From sequence record MZ726796.1: DNA of 46,233 bases. One strand, 5' to 3'. A program made the translations under genes and the position numbers. Positions 20,942-28,162 of the stretch are shown piece after piece. The first letter of the stretch is position 1, and each line of letters starts with the position of its first letter. Below the pieces are notes generated by a model. That model searched no databases. It had not been told where the DNA came from and worked only from the letters and a program-made list of their open reading frames with translations. This stretch comes from Escherichia phage vB_EcoS_ASO78B.

Positions 20942-21339
20942 TGCCAGCGAAATTAAGAGGCATTCGCCAAGCCGTAGAAAGAACATCGCAGATTGTGGAT
21001 GAGATAATAGCCACGAAAGCCGTGCGTGCGATCAAGTCAGCTACATACATCATCCGCACCGAATCAGCCACGCTGACGCCAATTGATACGTCAACGCTGA
21101 TTAACAGTCAGTTTGATACCGTGGAAGTCAGCGGAATGCGAATCACTGGCAAGGTTGGTTACTCTGCAAAATATGCGCTGTACGTCCACAATGCCAGTGG
21201 CAAACTTGCAGGCAAACCGCGCAGCAACGGCAACGGCACGTATTGGTCGCCGAATGCTGAACCTAGATTCCTGACCAAAGCAGCGCAACGCACAAAAGAC
21301 CTTGTAGATAGCGTGATTAAGAAGGAGATGACACTGTGA
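20941..21339 (+). CDS. tail completion protein (HK97 gp10-like, putative)
   Basis: 132 aa; YALYVHN..G..YWSPN..PRFL pattern of the kind seen in gp10-family proteins. Confidence 0.45.
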   Translation: MPAKLRGIRQAVERTSQIVDEIIATKAVRAIKSATYIIRTESATLTPIDTSTLINSQFDTVEVSGMRITGKVGYSAKYALYVHNASGKLAGKPRSNGNGTYWSPNAEPRFLTKAAQRTKDLVDSVIKKEMTL

Positions 21340-21710
21340 ATATGCTTGAACTGGTTGACGCATATCTTCAGGATGCCGGATTGTATGATGGCTGGACTTC
21401 GCAGTTGCAGTTCTGGAATGACACCGGAGACGGCAGCGAGCAATTTATTGTCCTGCAATCCAATGGGGGTACGCAGGTGATGGATGGCCTCGGAGGTGAC
21501 TTCTATTTCTCATTGTATATTGTCGGCAAACATGGACAGTATAACGTGTCGGATGTTGACGCTAAAGCCAATGAGATTATCGAATACATCAAAACCCATC
21601 CGATCGATTCATGCGTTAACTACATCCAGTTGCAGGCTCCGCTCGGGCGACCAATGCTGACGGAAGAGAAGCGCCCTGTGCATGAGTTGCTTTTGCGGGT
21701 TGTGAAATAA
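21336..21710 (+). CDS. tail terminator protein (putative)
   Basis: 124 aa, last + strand gene before the major tail protein region. Confidence 0.4.
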   Translation: MNMLELVDAYLQDAGLYDGWTSQLQFWNDTGDGSEQFIVLQSNGGTQVMDGLGGDFYFSLYIVGKHGQYNVSDVDAKANEIIEYIKTHPIDSCVNYIQLQAPLGRPMLTEEKRPVHELLLRVVK

Positions 21711-21712
21711 AT

Positions 21713-21738
21713 AAAGCCGCACTTGGCGGCTTTTAATT
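21713..21738. terminator. bidirectional terminator
   Basis: AAAGCCGC-ACTTG-GCGGCTTT followed by TTAATT. Confidence 0.6.
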
Positions 21739-21912
21739 ATCTTTGCTTTTTATTGAGCTGATAGCATCATCAAATGACTCGAACCTTCCGGCATATCCCC
21801 CACTGGCAAGACTAAGCAAGTACCATTTGTTAATCATTGATATAGAAGCAATGCGCCTGTTGTGGTTGTCAGCGATTCGCCAGTAATCATTATGGATTTG
21901 TTGGATTACCAT
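21733..21912 (-). CDS. small hypothetical protein downstream of tRNAs
   Basis: 59 aa from ATG 21912 with AAGGA RBS; the longer track ORF would overlap tRNA-Arg. Confidence 0.3.
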   Translation of the reverse strand: MVIQQIHNDYWRIADNHNRRIASISMINKWYLLSLASGGYAGRFESFDDAISSIKSKDN

Positions 21913-21927
21913 CGTAATTTCCTTAAC

Positions 21928-22003
21928 TGGCACACCATGCAGGATTCGAACCTGCAACCAATAGCTTAGAAGGCTACTGCTCTGTCCGTTGAGCTAATGG
22001 TGT
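21928..22003 (-). tRNA. tRNA-Arg (anticodon UCU)
   Basis: 76-nt cloverleaf read by hand: 7-bp acceptor stem ACACCAT/ATGGTGT, D-arm GCTC-AACGGACA-GAGC, anticodon loop CTTCTAA, T-arm GCAGG-TTCGAAT-CCTGC, encoded CCA. Confidence 0.8.
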
Positions 22004-22009
22004 TTGATT

Positions 22010-22097
22010 TGGCGGATAGTACAGGATTCGAACCTGTGAACCGTTTCCAGTTTATCGGTTAGCAACCGACTGCTTTCGGCCTCTCAGCCAACTATCC
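22010..22097 (-). tRNA. tRNA-Ser (anticodon GCU), type II
   Basis: 88 nt with long variable arm; acceptor GGATAGT/ACTATCC, anticodon loop TTGCTAA, T-arm ACAGG-TTCGAAT-CCTGT, encoded CCA. Confidence 0.75.
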
Positions 22098-22567
22098 GTT
22101 TATTTAGTGCTGGTTTAAGCATTGCCAGCATGCTTTCCTAATATCCAGCCCCGTAACCCATACATACCCCTACATATGATTGCGATAATGCTGGATATTA
22201 AGTGTTGTGGTGGCCGGCACTGATCTCCGGCTTGCGATGTCACGAATTTGCTACAGTAGAACGTTCACTTTGCTACTGGTCATGAGCGCATCAGCCTGCG
22301 CATTCACCACAACGGAAAGAGCACTGGCTAACCAAGCGCGCAGACTCTTCACGATTATCTGCTCAATGCTCTTACCTGTTGCGTTCCCTGACTTATTAAT
22401 CACACCTCAGGGACGCAGTGCGCCGAATTTGTTTACAAGGAATCGGAATACCTTGCTGACTTACAGGCTATTACGCCGCCATCAGAACAACATCATCGTT
22501 TGCATTTATCTTTGTGGTCAGTTTCTAAAAAGTCCGCAAAGTCGCTCACGAAAACTATCTGAAATAC

Positions 22568-22596
22568 AATCTACACCACAAAATAATCACTGTCAA
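22568..22596 (-). promoter_or_regulatory. consensus sigma70 promoter driving the tRNA transcript
   Basis: minus strand TTGACA, 17-nt spacer, TAGATT; points toward the tRNAs about 480 nt downstream. Confidence 0.55.
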
Positions 22597-22602
22597 CACC
22601 TG

Positions 22603-22611
22603 TGATATAAT
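22603..22611 (+). promoter_or_regulatory. extended -10 promoter (TGaTATAAT) for the major tail protein
   Basis: TG-n-TATAAT 36 nt upstream of ATG 22648, back-to-back with the tRNA promoter. Confidence 0.5.
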
Positions 22612-22647
22612 CACCACGTTAGCAGCTAACACAATTCGGAGATCGAA

Positions 22648-23364
22648 ATGGCTATTTGTGCAAATGATAAGGGCGTTCTGGTTGGTCGCATGACCCGCCT
22701 GTTCCTTGCTGAAGGGTGCGGCGACGCAGTTCCGGATGCAGAAGACTGGAAATATTTAGGCTCAACCACCAGTAAAGGTGTTGACTACTCGCCGCAGACC
22801 ACCACGTCGGAAGCTGATACCACTGGCGGCTTTGTTTCCACTCTCGTTACCAGCTCTGATATGACCATCAGTGCAGAGGTTGAAATCCGCAAGAATGACC
22901 CTAGCGATGAATTTGGCTTCCATCGTCTGGTTGAAATTTACACCACTGAACTTAAAGCGCGTCGCCAGCCTTCCTTGTGGGTGCGTCAGGTGACTGGTGC
23001 GACTATCGTTACCGCGTACTGTAACATCACCAGCATCAGCTACGAAGGTGGCACGAACGACATCGTGACTGGCAGCCTTGAGTTCAAGGTTTATGATTCT
23101 GACAGCGTTACCGTCGAAAGCCTTGAACCTCTGGCGTTCACTACCGACCTGCAATCAACTGGCAGCACTGGCAGCCCGTTAACCGTTGCTGTTGAAGGTG
23201 GCGTCGCTCCTTACACCTACGTCTGGCGCAAAGATGGTGTGGTTGTTGGTAGTGAGTCTGGCGCTTCACTGGCAAGCCCAACCGCTGGCGTGTATACAGT
23301 TACCGTTACCGACTCATCTACTGACCCTGAAATTATTATCAGTACGGCCTGCACAGTATCCTGA
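22648..23364 (+). CDS. major tail protein with C-terminal Ig-like domain
   Basis: 238 aa; C-terminal 75 aa resemble a Big_2-type Ig domain (GVYTVTVTD); precedes chaperone and tape measure. Confidence 0.7.
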   Translation: MAICANDKGVLVGRMTRLFLAEGCGDAVPDAEDWKYLGSTTSKGVDYSPQTTTSEADTTGGFVSTLVTSSDMTISAEVEIRKNDPSDEFGFHRLVEIYTTELKARRQPSLWVRQVTGATIVTAYCNITSISYEGGTNDIVTGSLEFKVYDSDSVTVESLEPLAFTTDLQSTGSTGSPLTVAVEGGVAPYTYVWRKDGVVVGSESGASLASPTAGVYTVTVTDSSTDPEIIISTACTVS

Positions 23365-23371
23365 TAAAGAA

Positions 23372-23397
23372 AAAGCCCCGAAAGGGGCTTTGTTTAT
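23372..23397. terminator. bidirectional terminator
   Basis: AAAGCCCC-GAAA-GGGGCTTT flanked by A-run and T-rich tract. Confidence 0.7.
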
Positions 23398-23591
23398 TCT
23401 TGTGGAGGTCCCGGTAGCGGCATCCAGTGGTCGAAGGTGGTCTGTGCTAATTCATCATATTCGTTGTACCAGTCACTCCATAACTCCCCATCCCAACAAA
23501 AAACATTTTTCTGCACTACCTCATTCACGCATACCAAAACAGCGACGTTCGTAGGAGGCATCATCTCACTACACTTAATCCACTGGCTCAT
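23394..23591 (-). CDS. DUF551-like protein
   Basis: 65 aa: MSQWIKCSEMMP..VAVLV...WDGELW...HWMPLPGPP matches the DUF551 pattern as recalled. Confidence 0.55.
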   Translation of the reverse strand: MSQWIKCSEMMPPTNVAVLVCVNEVVQKNVFCWDGELWSDWYNEYDELAQTTFDHWMPLPGPPQE

Positions 23592-23962
23592 AATCCTTCC
23601 TCATTCATCTTCAGGAAAACAATCATGGCGGCGCGGAGTGCTCCTCGTGATGATATATCTCCAATAGCGCTGCATGAACTAAAGATAAAAAATCCATTTT
23701 TATATTTTTTATCATAAACAAGCGAATCGGCATCCCACTTACAAATCGAATGATGAAGGGATATTTTACTATCAACTATGATAGGCCATGCATCTTCTGG
23801 ATTATTGCATGGGTCAAATTCAATCTCGTTAAAGTCGGCATAAGAACCCGTATCACACTCGACAAATCTAACCGGCTCGCCATCATCATTAAATGACACG
23901 CCAATAATTAGCGCTACCGCCTTATTAATCTCAAAATCACTCATCTCTTCATAATTTTTCAT
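23588..23962 (-). CDS. hypothetical protein (NinX/DUF2591-like?)
   Basis: 124 aa; MSDFEINKAVA...NNPEDAWPII resembles NinX-type proteins; weak. Confidence 0.4.
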   Translation of the reverse strand: MKNYEEMSDFEINKAVALIIGVSFNDDGEPVRFVECDTGSYADFNEIEFDPCNNPEDAWPIIVDSKISLHHSICKWDADSLVYDKKYKNGFFIFSSCSAIGDISSRGALRAAMIVFLKMNEEGL

Positions 23963-24102
23963 ATCACCTTATCCTCATCAAAAATCACGCCAATCACACG
24001 AAGCAGGTCTTTCGCCATGCGCTCTGCTTCTTCGTAGTCATAACCTGCATCGACATACAAATCAGTGTAGAAAGTCAGGTCGGCTTTTGTTTGTTCGTTC
24101 AT
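23959..24102 (-). CDS. small acidic hypothetical protein (47 aa)
   Basis: Hand-translated; ATGA overlaps with both neighbours. Confidence 0.3.
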   Translation of the reverse strand: MNEQTKADLTFYTDLYVDAGYDYEEAERMAKDLLRVIGVIFDEDKVI

Positions 24103-24293
24103 TTCTTGTCGTCGCTCTTAACTAATGCCCAAACCAGTGCGGCGACCCAACCAATAAAACTCCATCCAACGAGAATATTCAGTACGCAGATTGCAGTCCT
24201 GTTTACGTGCTTGCGTTGAAGAGCCACAAAAGATGGCAGAAGGTACACAAATATCACCAAACCAACAAAAAACAACAAAATAACAACATCCAT
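24099..24293 (-). CDS. superinfection-immunity (Imm-family)-like small membrane protein
   Basis: 64 aa, two TMDs; YLLPSFVALQRKH.NR.AI.VLNILVGWSFIGWVAALVWAL matches the Imm-family signature as recalled. Confidence 0.55.
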   Translation of the reverse strand: MDVVILLFFVGLVIFVYLLPSFVALQRKHVNRTAICVLNILVGWSFIGWVAALVWALVKSDDKK

Positions 24294-24328
24294 GACTCAC
24301 CTCATTCATCACTCGTTTCGATGACTTG

Positions 24329-24358
24329 AATCTACATCACCACCTCGCAGGTGTCAAC
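24329..24358 (-). promoter_or_regulatory. sigma70 promoter for the Imm-like operon
   Basis: minus strand TTGACA, 18-nt spacer, TAGATT, about 35 nt upstream of the Imm-like ATG. Confidence 0.5.
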
Positions 24359-24368
24359 ACCACTGAGA

Positions 24369-24377
24369 TGATATAAT
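24369..24377 (+). promoter_or_regulatory. extended -10 promoter (TGaTATAAT) for the tail chaperone/tape measure operon
   Basis: TG-n-TATAAT just upstream of ORF 24398. Confidence 0.45.
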
Positions 24378-24397
24378 CAACATCAGTCAAATTCAGG

Positions 24398-25114
24398 ATG
24401 CAAAACATGAGCTATCGCACGCCACTAACAGAAATCGGAGAGATGCGCATCTCGCTTTCTGACAGGAGTTTCTTCTTTAAGCCATCATTCCGCGCAATGA
24501 ATGAAATCGGCACACCAAAAGAAATCGTCGAGGTGTACGCAAAACTCAATGGCATTGATTATGTTGCGCCATTGCAGCACGTGGAATACCTGCCATTTGG
24601 CGCGCAGATGCAGGTTATGAAAACCATCAGCAAGCCTGTTTATGGTCGCCATGTGCTGAGTGCGGCCTATATCGTAATGCAGTCATGCTGTGAAGATGAT
24701 ATCTCTGCGCTGATTGGCGGATGGAAGCCAACTCCGCGCGGCGTGCGATACGTGCCGGGCATCATGCCAGTGAACGACATTATTATTATTGCGCGGAACC
24801 TGATGGAGCACGGCATTATTGGCAAGTCACCGCTCAAAGTGCCTGAGCGTCTGGAAGAGCAAGGCAAGAAAACCACAAACGAATTTCATGCGTCGCAATA
24901 CATCATCTCAGCACGCACGCATTTCGACATGACGCGTGATGAGGCCGAAAACCTGTCCATGACAGAGTTTCAGATGATGATTAAGAATAAATATCCAGAG
25001 CCGAAAGGGTTAACGAAAGAAGAGCGCGCGGCAGAGTACGATCAGGCTAAAGCAGACCGTGAGCGCATGAAGGCACTGGCTGAACGCAAAGCGAAAAAAG
25101 CGAGGAATACATAA
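24398..25114 (+). CDS. tail assembly chaperone (putative)
   Basis: 238 aa between major tail and tape measure; basic/acidic C-terminal tail; stop overlaps tape measure ATG. Confidence 0.5.
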   Translation: MQNMSYRTPLTEIGEMRISLSDRSFFFKPSFRAMNEIGTPKEIVEVYAKLNGIDYVAPLQHVEYLPFGAQMQVMKTISKPVYGRHVLSAAYIVMQSCCEDDISALIGGWKPTPRGVRYVPGIMPVNDIIIIARNLMEHGIIGKSPLKVPERLEEQGKKTTNEFHASQYIISARTHFDMTRDEAENLSMTEFQMMIKNKYPEPKGLTKEERAAEYDQAKADRERMKALAERKAKKARNT

Positions 25115-27486
25115 TGGCTGAAGAAGTAGGCGGAATTGTCTATGAAGTCGGGATGGATGTTAAAGGTCTGAAAGCTGGCGCGACAACAGCCAATAAGGCT
25201 TTGGATGACCTTGAATCATCACTGAATAAAACCACTGGTGAGCTTAACAAACTGGACAAAGGCGCACGCAATGCTGGCAGCGGAATGAAGAATGCTGGCG
25301 GTGCAGCTTCAGGGCTTAAAACCAGCATGTCCATGTTGGCTGGTGCAATATCCGTGTCGTTGATTATCGAATGGGGGAAAAGATTCCTTGAGGTTGCTGA
25401 TAACATGACACAGCTTCAGGCAAGAATTGCTCGCCTGTCAACTGATGCAAAAACTGCGAACGAAACATTCAGTTCACTGGCAAATATCGCATCAACCACT
25501 GGCGCAAGCCTCAGTGATACAACGAAGTTATGGGAAACGTTAACATCATCACTGAAAGAGGCTGGCGCGACAAATGCGCAGGTGCTTAACCTTACTGACA
25601 CTCTGCAAAAAATAGGTCGAATCGGCGGCTCTTCAACCGAGGAAATGGCGAACGCCTTACGTCAGTTCGGTCAGTCAATCGCATCTGGCACAATCCGCGC
25701 CGAAGAATTTAACTCCATCCTTGAACAGATGCCTGAACTTGCGCGCCAGATAGCCGCTGGACTTGGCATTTCAATGGGTGAGCTTCACGCCAGAATGCTT
25801 GACGGCAAACTGACGGCAGAAGATGCGCTAAATGCCATTCAGGACAGAACAAGCGTAGTCAATGCTGAGTTCGCAAAACTACCGCGCTCTATATCTCAGG
25901 CTACTGGCAGCCTTGAAACATCCTTTGCAAAAATGATAGCAAGCATAAACGATGCAACCGGAGCCAGTTCCACTTTTGTTTCTGTTATTGATTCCATCAC
26001 TTCAGCAATAAACAGACTTACTGGTCAAACTGTAAGTGCGGCAGAGGTTATTTCTGATTTGACGTCAACTGCCGAAATGTTCAGTCGCAGGGCAAGAACC
26101 TGGTCGTGGGTTGGCATTGACGGGTGGGCAGCACAAAATCAGGCAATAGCGGCGGTAGCAAATCAGGCTGCAACTTTGGTTTCAGACATGGATGCCGTAA
26201 CGAAGTCAACAGGAGAAGCAGCAAAAGCTCAGGCTCATTTGACAGTACCGAAAGCAGCAGAGAAAGACAAAAAGAAAAAAGGCAAGAGCGCCGAAGAACG
26301 ACAAGCTGAGTCAGTCGCTGAAAAGCTGGAGAAATTACGCCAGCAAACCATGCTCAATGCAACATCTACCAGCGAACTATCCCGCGAGCAAGCAATCCTC
26401 AACGCGCAGCAATCACTTGGCAAAGCTGCCACTCAGGAGCAAATAAAACTGGCTGGCGAGTACGCTGCGAAGATTTGGGACCAGAAGAATGCATTGAAGG
26501 AACAGGCTGCTGCGGAGAAGGAAAAGCAGCGCGTAGAACAATCATATCAGGGATTACGTGCCATTGCGTCACCAACGACTGGCATTGACAGTGAATACCA
26601 GCAACGTATGGCTGACCTTGACGCCTACGCCGCAGCATATCCGCAGAAAATCACGGAGATTGAACAGACTAGAGCAGCAATTGAAGCACAATACCGCCAG
26701 CAGCGAATGGATGCGATGTGGGCTGAATGGCAGCAACAAAGCCTCGGTGCGCAACTGTTCGGTACGGCGCTTGATTCGGCAATGAGCACAGCATCAAACA
26801 GCATCACCGGATTACTCACCGGAACAATGAGCGTTCAGGATGCCATGCGCAGCCTCGGCTCTACGGTGCTTAACTCACTGGTAAACAGTTTTGTCGAGAT
26901 GGGCGTGCAGTGGGTGAAATCTGCGGTTATGGGTCAGACAGCTCAGGTAGCAGCAACCGCTACGACAACGGCGGCGCAAACGGCAGGACTGGCAACCACA
27001 ACAGCAGCGTCGACGGCGGCGGCAGCCACCACTACCGCAGCATGGACCCCCGCTGCAATCGTTGCATCAATAGGTTCATTCGGCGGTGCGGCTGCAATTG
27101 GTGTAGGCGCGGTTCTCGGTGCACTAGCGATGGGTATTGCTGGCAAGCGCAAGAATGGCGGCCCTGTTAGCGCCGGAAGCATGTATGAAGTGGGCGAGGG
27201 AAATGCACCAGAAATATTCCAGGCGAGCACAGGCAGGCAATACATGATCCCTGGCAACTCAGGAAAGGTTATCAGCAATAAGGATATTTCCGGTGGAGGG
27301 GGCGGTGTTGTTGTTTATAATAATGTTTACAATAATTCAAGCAACGCCAGCGCAACAAGCAATGCAAGAGATAATGGTGACGGTTCGATAACGATTGAGA
27401 CTTTTATCTCTGACATGGACGAGGGAGGCCCAATGAGCCAGTCAATTTCAAGAAACTTTAACGCCAACAGAAGGGCGACAGAGTAA
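25114..27486 (+). CDS. tail tape measure protein
   Basis: 790 aa, long helical Ala/Gln/Glu-rich regions, Ala/Thr/Gly-rich hydrophobic block. Confidence 0.85.
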   Translation: MAEEVGGIVYEVGMDVKGLKAGATTANKALDDLESSLNKTTGELNKLDKGARNAGSGMKNAGGAASGLKTSMSMLAGAISVSLIIEWGKRFLEVADNMTQLQARIARLSTDAKTANETFSSLANIASTTGASLSDTTKLWETLTSSLKEAGATNAQVLNLTDTLQKIGRIGGSSTEEMANALRQFGQSIASGTIRAEEFNSILEQMPELARQIAAGLGISMGELHARMLDGKLTAEDALNAIQDRTSVVNAEFAKLPRSISQATGSLETSFAKMIASINDATGASSTFVSVIDSITSAINRLTGQTVSAAEVISDLTSTAEMFSRRARTWSWVGIDGWAAQNQAIAAVANQAATLVSDMDAVTKSTGEAAKAQAHLTVPKAAEKDKKKKGKSAEERQAESVAEKLEKLRQQTMLNATSTSELSREQAILNAQQSLGKAATQEQIKLAGEYAAKIWDQKNALKEQAAAEKEKQRVEQSYQGLRAIASPTTGIDSEYQQRMADLDAYAAAYPQKITEIEQTRAAIEAQYRQQRMDAMWAEWQQQSLGAQLFGTALDSAMSTASNSITGLLTGTMSVQDAMRSLGSTVLNSLVNSFVEMGVQWVKSAVMGQTAQVAATATTTAAQTAGLATTTAASTAAAATTTAAWTPAAIVASIGSFGGAAAIGVGAVLGALAMGIAGKRKNGGPVSAGSMYEVGEGNAPEIFQASTGRQYMIPGNSGKVISNKDISGGGGGVVVYNNVYNNSSNASATSNARDNGDGSITIETFISDMDEGGPMSQSISRNFNANRRATE

Positions 27487-27514
27487 AAAAAAGCCCCTCA
27501 CGGGGCTTTTTTTA
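27485..27514. terminator. bidirectional terminator
   Basis: A8-GCCCC-TCAC-GGGGC-T7 between tape measure stop and the convergent KilA-N gene stop. Confidence 0.75.
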
Positions 27515-28162
27515 AATCTTATCAGCGCATTTACGTACTACCCTCGGTATCGTTTCTTTCAGTTCATCCCATGAGTTGACCGCTTCCATATCCAGAAGCG
27601 TGACAAGAGACTTCTGGATGTCACTGCGTAACTGGTTAGTTTTTGCGTCCTGAGAGTCCCATGTGTCAAATCCGGTAACTTCACGGATATCTATCGACTC
27701 CTTTACTGCCTTTGCCACCTGAATGAAATGACCACTATGACCAATCCTGCCCTCTGTGCGTTCAAGCATTCTGCTGACGGCAGCATTAAGTTCCACGAAG
27801 CTTACCGCACCAATATTTCGCAATTCAACCTGCCTCTGCGTAATGAATCTGTCGATGACGAGGAAATGGAAATATGTGCTGTATTGCTCTGCTATATATA
27901 CAGCCAGATGCAAGCAAGCAAAAGTGGAACCATTTCTACCTCGTGTTGATTTTATTGCGCTATCGATACCAAGCTGCTTTTCGCACTCAGCCTTGAAATC
28001 CTTAAACGCATCAGTTGCCATTACCTGTCGTATTTCTCTCGTCCCCATCCCATTATCCAGTCGCCAGCGATTCATCTGGTTAACAAGCTCATTAACGTTA
28101 ATAAAATTTTCACGGTCGAAAGTGATCTCTCCGTACGGGAACTCTAATGTTTGCAGTTTCAT
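27512..28162 (-). CDS. KilA-N domain protein
   Basis: 216 aa; N-terminal region with INVNEL..W and IKSTRGRNGSTFACLHLAVYIAEQYSTYFHFLVIDRF fits the KilA-N pattern (RGG..GTW.HP.LA...A.WLSP.F.V.V). Confidence 0.5.
   Translation of the reverse strand: MKLQTLEFPYGEITFDRENFINVNELVNQMNRWRLDNGMGTREIRQVMATDAFKDFKAECEKQLGIDSAIKSTRGRNGSTFACLHLAVYIAEQYSTYFHFLVIDRFITQRQVELRNIGAVSFVELNAAVSRMLERTEGRIGHSGHFIQVAKAVKESIDIREVTGFDTWDSQDAKTNQLRSDIQKSLVTLLDMEAVNSWDELKETIPRVVRKCADKI

What the first reader, a model, noticed from the sequence alone, without database searches (positions are those of the whole stretch)
23394..24358. Superinfection-immunity-like operon inserted between major tail protein and tail chaperone
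Four translationally coupled minus-strand genes: an Imm-family-like two-TMD protein (YLLPSF..NILVGWSFIGWVAALVWAL), a 47-aa acidic peptide, a NinX-like protein and a DUF551-like protein. They are bounded by a bidirectional terminator (23372-23397) and driven by a near-consensus promoter (TTGACA, 18-nt spacer, TAGATT). Imm-type proteins block DNA entry of superinfecting phage, so this looks like a phage-carried exclusion cassette in the tail module.
Basis: partly seen in the sequence, partly recalled or inferred. Interest (0 to 1): 0.65.

Follow-up and report, generated by a model that had tools for sequence, protein, structure and literature searches.

The report
Imm-like gene in swappable phage cassette
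A small self-contained gene cassette wedged between the tail genes of a virulent E. coli phage carries a genuine relative of phage T4's "immunity" membrane protein, which probably stops rival phages from injecting DNA; close relatives already have this gene annotated, so the find is solid but ordinary.

Summary
Window 23394-24358 holds four minus-strand genes joined by ATGA stop/start overlaps, with a sigma-70-like promoter (TTGACA-17-TAGATT; spacer 17, not 18) and a bidirectional terminator (23372-23391). All four family calls hold: Imm (PF14373, 66 bits; 34% identical to T4 Imm; same two-helix membrane layout), a 47-aa acidic peptide, NinX and DUF551.

The window is Escherichia phage vB_EcoS_ASO78B, a virulent Skatevirus-like siphophage. 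The gene is "hypothetical" in its own record but is annotated "immunity to superinfection" in RefSeq relatives.

Comparing 78 related loci changes the interpretation. This is not a dedicated four-gene exclusion operon. It is a hypervariable accessory (moron-type) slot:
- Only the divergent promoter pair, the 47-aa gene and (checked in the close clade) the terminator are constant.
- Imm, NinX and DUF551 are optional cargo, replaced elsewhere by DNA methyltransferases, HNH endonucleases and other genes.
- Distant relatives lack the slot altogether.

Exclusion by Imm is inferred from homology only. Verdict: new member of a known kind, modest interest.

The more surprising item lies next door, at about 22100-22560 on the minus strand. 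It is an unannotated, covariation-supported tmRNA-like RNA encoding the tag ANDDVVLMAA, with no recognisable tRNA-like 3' half.

The parts
24329..24357 (-). Sigma-70-type promoter of the cassette: TTGACA (24357-24352), 17-nt spacer, TAGATT (24334-24329). The start site is inferred near 24322.
   Evidence: Both hexamers are invariant and the spacer varies in more than 60 related loci.
24369..24377 (+). Divergent extended -10 promoter (TGATATAAT), about 20 nt upstream of the DUF6246 ATG. It would restart tail-gene transcription beyond the cassette.
   Evidence: TGnTATAAT is conserved at this place in 65 loci. There are only four such sites in the window, all on the + strand and the two examined here lie just ahead of genes.
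24099..24293 (-). Imm-family protein, 64 aa (ASO78B_055). Two membrane helices (about residues 1-27 and 33-60) joined by a basic loop (R27, K28, R32).
   Evidence: PF14373 at 66 bits and phrog_1039 'immunity to superinfection'. 34% identity to T4 Imm. Topology. Purifying selection: 77/92/460 differences by codon position.
23959..24102 (-). p47, a 47-aa acidic two-helix hairpin protein. It is the only universally conserved gene of the cassette. Function unknown.
   Evidence: phrog_17424. Present in 70/71 loci. Third-position bias 58/43/248. AF2 pLDDT 89, helices 3-18 and 23-36. About 12 clusters (E <= 1e-7, all short proteins) among 1.84 billion representatives.
23588..23962 (-). NinX-family protein (PF10765/DUF2591), 124 aa, acidic. 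Three conserved blocks are separated by two hypervariable segments.
23394..23591 (-). DUF551 protein, 65 aa, acidic and Trp/Cys-rich. The ends are conserved and the core is hypervariable among relatives.
23372..23391 (.). Bidirectional intrinsic terminator (8-bp stem, 5 G-C pairs, 4-nt loop, T-rich tails on both sides). It is shared by the major tail protein gene and the cassette.
   Evidence: A similar hairpin follows the major tail protein gene in 34 close-clade loci.
22648..23364 (+). Context: major tail protein gene (left boundary of the slot).
   Evidence: phrog_853, E=5e-86.
24398..25114 (+). Context: DUF6246 protein gene (right boundary). It abuts the tape measure gene (25114-27486). 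A chaperone role is inferred from position only.
   Evidence: PF19759, 247 bits. Annotations.

Best explanation
The region is an autonomous accessory ('moron'-type) transcription unit in the tail module of the virulent siphophage vB_EcoS_ASO78B. Host RNA polymerase starts at TTGACA-17-TAGATT, reads four translationally coupled genes against the direction of the structural genes, and stops at a hairpin shared with the major tail protein gene. A back-to-back extended -10 promoter restarts the downstream tail genes.

Shown:
- The unit's anatomy.
- Its conservation as a framework (divergent promoters and p47 throughout; the terminator checked in the close clade).
- Its variable cargo.
- The membership of gene 1 in the T4 Imm family.

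Inferred:
- The 64-aa Imm protein inserts into the inner membrane of the infected cell.
- Like T4 Imm, it prevents DNA of later-arriving phages from crossing that membrane, protecting the ongoing infection from competitors.
- p47, NinX and DUF551 are cytoplasmic acidic proteins that act independently of Imm, most likely on host or rival-phage targets.
- p47 supplies a function needed by every phage that has this slot.
For: - Gene structure and ATGA overlaps.
- Promoter and terminator.
- Hexamers invariant with variable spacer in more than 60 phages.
- Divergent TGnTATAAT conserved in 65 loci.
- PF14373 at 66 bits against a cut-off of 27.9. T4 Imm itself scores 58 bits on the same model. Direct alignment to T4 Imm: 34% identity, E=1e-11. 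Same two-helix layout with basic loop.
- Purifying selection on Imm (77/92/460) and p47 (58/43/248).
- Cassette GC 41.9% against 46.6% for the genome.
- Slot absent in distant relatives and its content variable: Imm, a signal-peptide protein, NinX, DUF551, HNH, methyltransferases, DUF7740.
- Same layout, with the Imm-p47 ATGA coupling, in Aeromonas phage pIS4-A.
- Imm-family genes occur in 409 phage records spanning many mostly virulent groups.
- T4 Imm together with Spackle confers superinfection exclusion (PMC7677548). The T4 RefSeq note describes superinfecting DNA being left in the periplasm.
Against: - No experiment on any Imm homologue outside T4 was found.
- T4 Imm acts on T-even phages, whose DNA-entry route differs from that of siphophages.
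- Identity is only 34%, and the roughly 18-residue C-terminal tail of T4 Imm is missing.
- Imm is dispensable: many close relatives lack it.
- Expression timing is unknown. The structural genes here also appear to use sigma-70-type promoters, so promoter type does not prove early expression.
- Nothing is known about p47, NinX or DUF551.
Confidence: 0.55

Rival explanations
1. One reading: all four genes form one dedicated superinfection-exclusion operon whose products work together.
For: Tight translational coupling by ATGA overlaps. Imm is always immediately followed by p47 where both occur: 26 of 30 loci at the same overlap offset, and likewise in pIS4-A.
Against: p47 occurs without Imm in about 40 loci with near-identical sequence. 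NinX and DUF551 are freely replaced by unrelated genes. There are no defence-family hits for genes 2-4.
Confidence: 0.1
2. The unit is mainly a counter-defence or host-takeover island. The Imm-like protein has a membrane role other than blocking DNA entry, for example modulating lysis timing, resisting lysis from without, or neutralising membrane-acting host defence effectors.
For: The same slot in relatives carries DNA methyltransferases (PF01555; phrog_757), which are typical anti-restriction cargo. NinX and DUF551 are classic early 'nin-region' genes of lambdoid phages. NinX and DUF551 have hypervariable cores on conserved scaffolds, as expected of arms-race proteins. There is a weak resemblance of Imm to the 2TM module of a 2TM-TIR defence effector (E=0.002).
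Against: The only characterised family member, T4 Imm, is an exclusion protein. The 2TM-TIR hit is weak and may reflect composition only. No anti-defence family matched.
Confidence: 0.2
3. The conserved framework is primarily regulatory. The terminator and the divergent promoters insulate the major tail protein gene as its own highly expressed unit and reset expression of the DUF6246 and tape measure genes. p47 is the only functionally required gene, and the remaining genes are hitch-hiking cargo with no consistent role.
For: An identical divergent promoter module sits on the other side of the major tail protein gene (22568-22611), with a second bidirectional terminator at 21713-21733, so that gene is bracketed. 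Cargo turnover is high.
Against: Imm shows clear purifying selection. Distant relatives manage with only a terminator between the two tail genes. This explains the framework but not why the cargo is retained.
Confidence: 0.15

Closest known systems
Bacteriophage T4 Imm (immunity to superinfection; Pfam PF14373)
   Same: Same Pfam family. 34% identity over 53 residues. Two membrane helices with a short basic loop and the conserved GW..IGW motif. Encoded by a virulent phage.
   Different: 64 aa against 83 aa: it lacks T4's N-terminal 6 or so residues and its roughly 18-residue C-terminal tail. It sits in a siphophage tail module rather than the T4 early region. The target phages and the phenotype are untested.
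T4 two-component exclusion (Imm plus periplasmic Spackle)
   Same: The Imm component is present. Several relatives (not this window) carry a 97-aa signal-peptide protein just upstream of Imm, similar in size and position to the Spackle precursor (that size is from my own knowledge).
   Different: The window has no secreted partner. The relatives' 97-aa protein shows no sequence similarity to any solved structure, Spackle included. Siphophages have no gp5-type lysozyme spike.
Morons of lambdoid/HK97-like phages (autonomous promoter-gene-terminator units between late genes; established concept, from my own knowledge)
   Same: Own promoter, own terminator, location between tail genes, absence from some relatives, lower G+C than its surroundings.
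   Different: It is multi-gene, transcribed antisense to the late genes, sits in a virulent phage, and is built around a constant gene (p47) with its own paired restart promoter.
nin-region genes of lambdoid phages (P22 NinX; DUF551 of YfdS and Ea22 variant V2)
   Same: Genes 3 and 4 are members of these families by HMM. The families have no established function.
   Different: Here they lie in a tail-module cassette, not downstream of the replication genes.
Receptor-blocking exclusion proteins of virulent siphophages (T5 Llp, T1 Cor)
   Same: A phage-encoded protein of a virulent siphophage protecting the infected cell, or its debris, from further phage (context).
   Different: Those are outer-membrane lipoproteins that block a porin receptor and are encoded beside the receptor-binding protein. 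Imm is an inner-membrane protein acting after adsorption. ASO78B-like phages are O-antigen dependent.

Membership tests
Imm_superinfect (PF14373; T4 Imm family) | Profile HMM score above the curated gathering cut-off | tested here: met
   66 bits against a cut-off of 27.9, full-length match to model positions 1-42. T4 Imm scores 58.2 bits on the same model.
Imm_superinfect (PF14373; T4 Imm family) | Direct sequence similarity to the characterised member, T4 Imm | tested here: met
   BLASTP: 18/53 identical (34%), no gaps, E=1e-11.
Imm_superinfect (PF14373; T4 Imm family) | Small protein with two membrane-spanning helices and a short basic connecting loop | tested here: met
   Hydrophobic stretches at 1-27 and 33-60; loop residues R27, K28, R32. 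T4 Imm shows the same pattern. This is a hydropathy calculation only.
Imm_superinfect (PF14373; T4 Imm family) | Blocks DNA entry of superinfecting phage when expressed | not testable with these tools
   Needs plating-efficiency and DNA-entry assays.
Imm_superinfect (PF14373; T4 Imm family) | Expressed early in infection | tested here: inconclusive
   A conserved sigma-70 promoter is present, but the structural genes also have sigma-70-type promoters. No transcript data were found.
Moron (autonomous accessory transcription unit within a late operon) | Own promoter and own terminator | tested here: met
Moron (autonomous accessory transcription unit within a late operon) | Present in some relatives and absent in others, between conserved flanking genes | tested here: met
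   The gap between the two flanking tail genes ranges from 65 to 1523 nt. L077-L081 lack the cassette genes (L077, L080 and L081 have only 65-330 nt there).
Moron (autonomous accessory transcription unit within a late operon) | Base composition differs from the neighbouring genes | tested here: met
   GC 41.9% against 46.6% for the genome and 52.3% for the major tail protein gene.
T4-type Imm+Spackle pair | A periplasmic partner protein (Spackle homologue) encoded by the phage | tested here: not met
   The window cassette has no signal-peptide protein. The relatives' 97-aa secreted protein has no sequence match to Spackle structures.
Phage_P22_NinX (PF10765) | HMM score above cut-off | tested here: met
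   50.3 bits against 22.6, model positions 1-113 of 114.
DUF551 (PF04448) | HMM score above cut-off | tested here: met
   48.9 bits against 22, model positions 1-68 of 68.
Known anti-phage defence systems (PADLOC-DB) | Significant match of any cassette protein to a defence-system model | tested here: not met
   The only hit is a weak Imm match to 2TM-TIR (E=0.0019). There is none for the other three proteins.

The most novel reading that the evidence does not exclude
The slot is a dedicated gene-exchange platform. Its fixed frame (divergent promoter pair, p47, bidirectional terminator) lets Skatevirus/Roufvirus-type phages of E. coli, Salmonella, Klebsiella and Aeromonas swap exclusion and counter-defence genes. 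p47 would be a previously unrecognised, universally retained host-takeover factor. The Imm homologue would be the first Imm-type protein shown to block tape-measure-mediated DNA entry by siphophages, extending Imm exclusion beyond T-even phages.
Probability: 0.15. Interest if true: 0.55.

Novelty: new member of a known kind. Interest (0 to 1): 0.3.

Why it matters
ASO78B is being developed for phage cocktails against avian pathogenic E. coli (PMC10612097, PMC12990363).

- **Practical:** a functional exclusion gene could reduce the benefit of combining it with other phages, or shape which phages co-infect. The gene is unannotated in this phage's record.
- **Biological:** the comparison shows that the well-known Imm label hides a modular swap locus whose only constant gene, p47, has no known function.
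- **Knowledge gap:** no Imm-family protein outside T4 appears to have been tested. A simple plating experiment would therefore be informative for hundreds of annotated phage genes.

Tried and rejected
**p47**
- No Pfam match.
- PDB profile search found only designed helical repeats.
- Foldseek of a confident AF2 model gave nothing with E below 2; a generic helical hairpin.
- An exhaustive profile search found about 12 related clusters (E <= 1e-7, all short proteins) and otherwise only repeat-protein noise.

**NinX**
- The AF2 model was of low confidence (pLDDT 58), so no fold search was run.
- No PDB sequence match.
- The literature search was swamped by nickel-nitrogen chemistry.

**DUF551**
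- No PDB match.
- The papers only note unknown function.

**Other dead ends**
- PADLOC and NCBIfam gave nothing useful.
- Prophage origin was rejected: no E. coli chromosome matches the region.
- The seszw genome-reduction study (PMC9825161) might show whether the cassette is dispensable, but its supplementary tables are not held.
- The hypothesis that the relatives' 97-aa secreted protein is a Spackle homologue has no sequence support.

**Neighbouring RNA**
- Searches for a T-arm, acceptor strand and CCA complementary to the 5' end were negative.
- ARAGORN calls no tmRNA.

Full report
**What is there**

Window 23394-24293 carries four minus-strand ORFs whose stops and starts overlap by ATGA: 24099-24293 (64 aa), 23959-24102 (47 aa), 23588-23962 (124 aa) and 23394-23591 (65 aa).
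- Three of the four are preceded by a recognisable Shine-Dalgarno sequence. The 47-aa gene has only a weak one.
- Upstream lies TTGACA (24357-24352), a 17-nt spacer and TAGATT (24334-24329). Downstream lies an 8-bp G+C-rich hairpin at 23372-23391, scored as a terminator on both strands.

**Families**

- The 64-aa protein matches Pfam Imm_superinfect PF14373 (E=2.8e-18, 66 bits, cut-off 27.9) and PHROG 1039, 'immunity to superinfection'.
- The 124-aa protein matches Phage_P22_NinX (50 bits).
- The 65-aa protein matches DUF551 (49 bits).
- The 47-aa protein matches only PHROG 17424, of unknown function.

I fetched T4 imm from NC_000866. It scores 58 bits on the same Pfam model. It aligns to the window protein without gaps at 34% identity (E=1e-11).

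Both proteins have two long hydrophobic stretches joined by a short basic loop. The window protein lacks T4's C-terminal tail.

PADLOC gave only a weak 2TM-TIR resemblance for Imm and nothing for the other three proteins.

**Identity of the window**

The exact 64-aa protein is 'hypothetical protein ASO78B_055' of Escherichia phage vB_EcoS_ASO78B, on a 46,233-bp contig.
- ASO78B is a virulent siphophage of APEC O78, and its paper does not mention superinfection immunity (PMC10612097).
- The region matches 188 phage records at roughly 92-94% identity but with only 80-88% coverage.
- These are Skatevirus, Buchananvirus and allied genera of Salmonella, E. coli, Shigella and Klebsiella phages.
- RefSeq already annotates the gene there as 'immunity to superinfection'.
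- No E. coli chromosome carries the region, so it is not prophage-derived.

**Comparative anatomy**

I anchored on the DUF6246 gene and retrieved 78 IMG/VR loci, then catalogued what lies between the major tail protein gene and DUF6246.
- The gap ranges from 65 to 1523 nt.
- Three of the five most distant relatives (L077, L080, L081) have only a terminator-like hairpin there; L078 and L079 carry no cassette genes either.
- Among the 71 loci with a cassette, the 47-aa gene is present in 70. Its identity is 94-98% in the close clade, 50-69% in the Klebsiella-phage clade and about 40% in a third clade.
- Imm is present in about 31 loci, NinX in about 30 and DUF551 in about 35.
- Other cargo includes a 97-aa signal-peptide protein (21 loci), an HNH_3 endonuclease, an N6/N4 DNA methyltransferase, a second methyltransferase (phrog_757) and DUF7740.
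- The NinX and DUF551 alleles keep conserved ends or blocks but have unalignable cores.
- Aeromonas phage pIS4-A has the same layout. Its p47 gene overlaps Imm by ATGA but is unannotated.

**Framework**

- The minus-strand promoter keeps both hexamers in more than 60 loci while the spacer sequence drifts.
- Back-to-back with it, an extended -10 element (TGATATAAT, 24369-24377) lies about 20 nt before the DUF6246 ATG. It is conserved as TGnTATAAT in 65 loci.
- The window has only two TTGACA-N(16-18)-TAnnnT sites and only four TGnTATAAT sites.
- One of each forms an identical divergent pair on the other side of the major tail protein gene (22568-22611). A second bidirectional terminator sits at 21713-21733.
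- The major tail protein gene is thus bracketed by two antisense units.
- Both Imm and p47 evolve under purifying selection: differences by codon position are 77/92/460 and 58/43/248.
- Cassette G+C is 41.9% against 46.6% for the genome.

**Interpretation**

The unit meets every structural criterion of a moron-type accessory unit. Its first gene is a bona fide Imm-family member.
- By homology, the most likely activity is a block of DNA transfer across the inner membrane against later-arriving phage, as described for T4 Imm (T4 record note; PMC7677548).
- That step is inferred. I found no test of any non-T4 homologue, although the family is annotated in 409 phage records. These include T-even relatives, G7C-like podophages, Sashavirus and mycobacteriophages.
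- The four genes are not a functional unit. p47 is constant and independent of Imm, and the rest is exchangeable.
- p47 is predicted with confidence to be a two-helix hairpin (pLDDT 89). It has no informative structural or sequence relatives.
- The BASEL study shows Skatevirus phages depend on O-antigen. It argues that receptor-modifying exclusion is unlikely for such virulent phages. That makes a post-adsorption mechanism such as Imm's plausible.

**Verdict**

- This is a new member of a known kind, already annotated in sister phages.
- Interest is modest. It rests mainly on the swap-locus architecture and the unknown universal gene p47.

**Noticed next door (outside the finding)**

The twin minus-strand unit (22596 down to 21733) encodes tRNA-Ser(GCU), tRNA-Arg(UCU) and a 74-aa ORF. 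These are preceded by about 460 nt of highly conserved non-coding RNA.

That RNA contains a tmRNA-type resume context and a ten-codon tag, AAAGAUAAAU|GCA AAC GAU GAU GUU GUU CUG AUG GCG GCG UAA UAG, giving ANDDVVLMAA (22503-22471).
- Relatives encode ANEEMYLAVA and other AN[DE]...[LM]A[AV]A tags, with synonymous codon changes.
- Rfam's tmRNA models align exactly this stretch, but below threshold (22-30 bits against 47).

Covariation supports three structural elements:

| Element | Paired sequences (counts) |
|---|---|
| Helix over the stop codon | CTGG/CCAG 41, CTGA/TCAG 24 |
| Hairpin | CAAGG/CCTTG 32, TGAGG/CCTCA 31, CGGGG/CCCCG 11 |
| Pseudoknot | CCGA/TCGG 64, CCAG/CTGG 11, CCAA/TTGG 5 (80 of 80 paired) |

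A long stem then encloses a hypervariable 34-98-nt insert and shows compensatory changes.

- No T-arm, acceptor strand or CCA partner was found, and ARAGORN reports no tmRNA.
- The 18-mer around the resume codon occurs in at least 120 viral contigs, including phages of about 157 kb.
- The stem-plus-insert module alone occurs between Q and the holin gene in one lambdoid prophage that I inspected. It matches unannotated chromosomal sites in 163 E. coli genomes.
- A 2014 survey lists phage tmRNAs only from mycobacteriophages and Bacillus phage G (PMC4131195).
- This deserves its own investigation.

Noticed in passing
window ~22100-22560, minus strand (tag ORF 22503-22471): An unannotated, strongly conserved structured RNA that looks like the mRNA-like and pseudoknot part of a tmRNA.
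- It has a resume-codon context and a 10-codon tag, ANDDVVLMAA (the E. coli SsrA tag is ANDENYALAA).
- Relatives keep the peptide through synonymous changes.
- Covariation supports helix 5, a hairpin and a pseudoknot (80 of 80 paired).
- Rfam tmRNA models hit only below threshold, and ARAGORN is negative.
- No T-arm, acceptor strand or CCA half was found.
- It may be a new family of phage tmRNA-like RNA, either a decoy or a non-canonical rescuer.

   Followed up: partly
window 22304-22383, minus strand; L203 2483-2560: Within that RNA, an irregular stem of about 15 bp (CACAAC-A-GG-UAAGAGCA ... UGCUCUU-U-CC-GUUGUG) encloses a hypervariable insert of 34-98 nt.
- The same insert types are shared between the E. 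coli/Salmonella and Klebsiella phage clades (L017/L054; L030/L036).
- Some loci have two such modules in tandem (L010, L062).
- The module with the window's own insert matches unannotated chromosomal sites in 163 E. coli genomes. In the one inspected, a lambdoid prophage, it lies between the Q antiterminator and the holin gene, without the tag region.

   Followed up: partly
window 22568-22611 and 24329-24377; terminators 21713-21733 and 23372-23391: The major tail protein gene is bracketed by two copies of the same divergent promoter module (minus strand TTGACA-17-TAGATT, plus strand TGATATAAT) and by two bidirectional terminators. It therefore forms its own transcription unit between two antisense accessory units. 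These are the only two TTGACA-N-TAnnnT sites and two of only four TGnTATAAT sites in the genome.
   Followed up: partly
window 21733-22097, minus strand: tRNA-Ser(GCU) at 22010-22097, tRNA-Arg(UCU) at 21928-22003 and a 74-aa ORF (phrog_35112; the real start is probably the GTG near 21933). All are on the same minus-strand transcript as the tmRNA-like RNA. The tRNA content varies among relatives: none, Arg+Ser, Arg+Met or Met+Arg+Ser.
   Followed up: partly
window 22553-22560 versus 22010-22097: The first bases of the tmRNA-like RNA (AGAUAGUUUUCGUGAG) resemble the 5' acceptor and D-arm of the downstream tRNA-Ser (GGAUAGUUGGCUGAG). They could pair 6 of 7 with its 3' acceptor strand. This does not hold in relatives that have other tRNAs or none, so its meaning is unclear.
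   Followed up: partly
L131 492-900 (108-kb viral contig): One member of the tmRNA-like family has a T-arm (GCGGG-UUCGAUU-CCCGC), an acceptor strand and CCA about 330 nt downstream of the tag. This is complementary to GGAGUGA near its 5' end. Some relatives may therefore be complete one-piece tmRNAs that ARAGORN misses.
   Followed up: no
L082 3135-3269 (Aeromonas phage pIS4-A, NC_042037): The p47 gene (44 aa, ATGA overlap with Imm) is present but unannotated in the RefSeq record. The family is probably under-called because of its size.
   Followed up: yes
L002 4143-4436 (Sa179lw gp26) and 20 other loci: A 97-aa protein with a signal peptide and two cysteines (phrog_2315) sits just upstream of Imm, or of p47 where Imm is absent, in many relatives but not in the window. 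By my recollection of Spackle's size, its size and position recall T4 Spackle, but there is no sequence similarity to any solved structure.
   Followed up: partly
L031 and L066 cassette loci; L082 2839-3138: Some relatives encode longer Imm variants (99-104 aa) with an extra N-terminal hydrophobic segment ahead of the PF14373 core.
   Followed up: no
L085 1030-1244; L086 2223-2436 (~157-kb phages): Rfam STnc100 sRNA hits above the gathering score (53 and 49 bits against 47) lie downstream of the tmRNA-like element in large phages. No such hit was found in the part of the window that was scanned (21000-25500).
   Followed up: no
window 27512-28162, minus strand: A 216-aa minus-strand ORF lies directly after the tape measure gene, at the position annotated 'endonuclease' in VSt472. 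It is another antisense insertion in the tail module.
   Followed up: no
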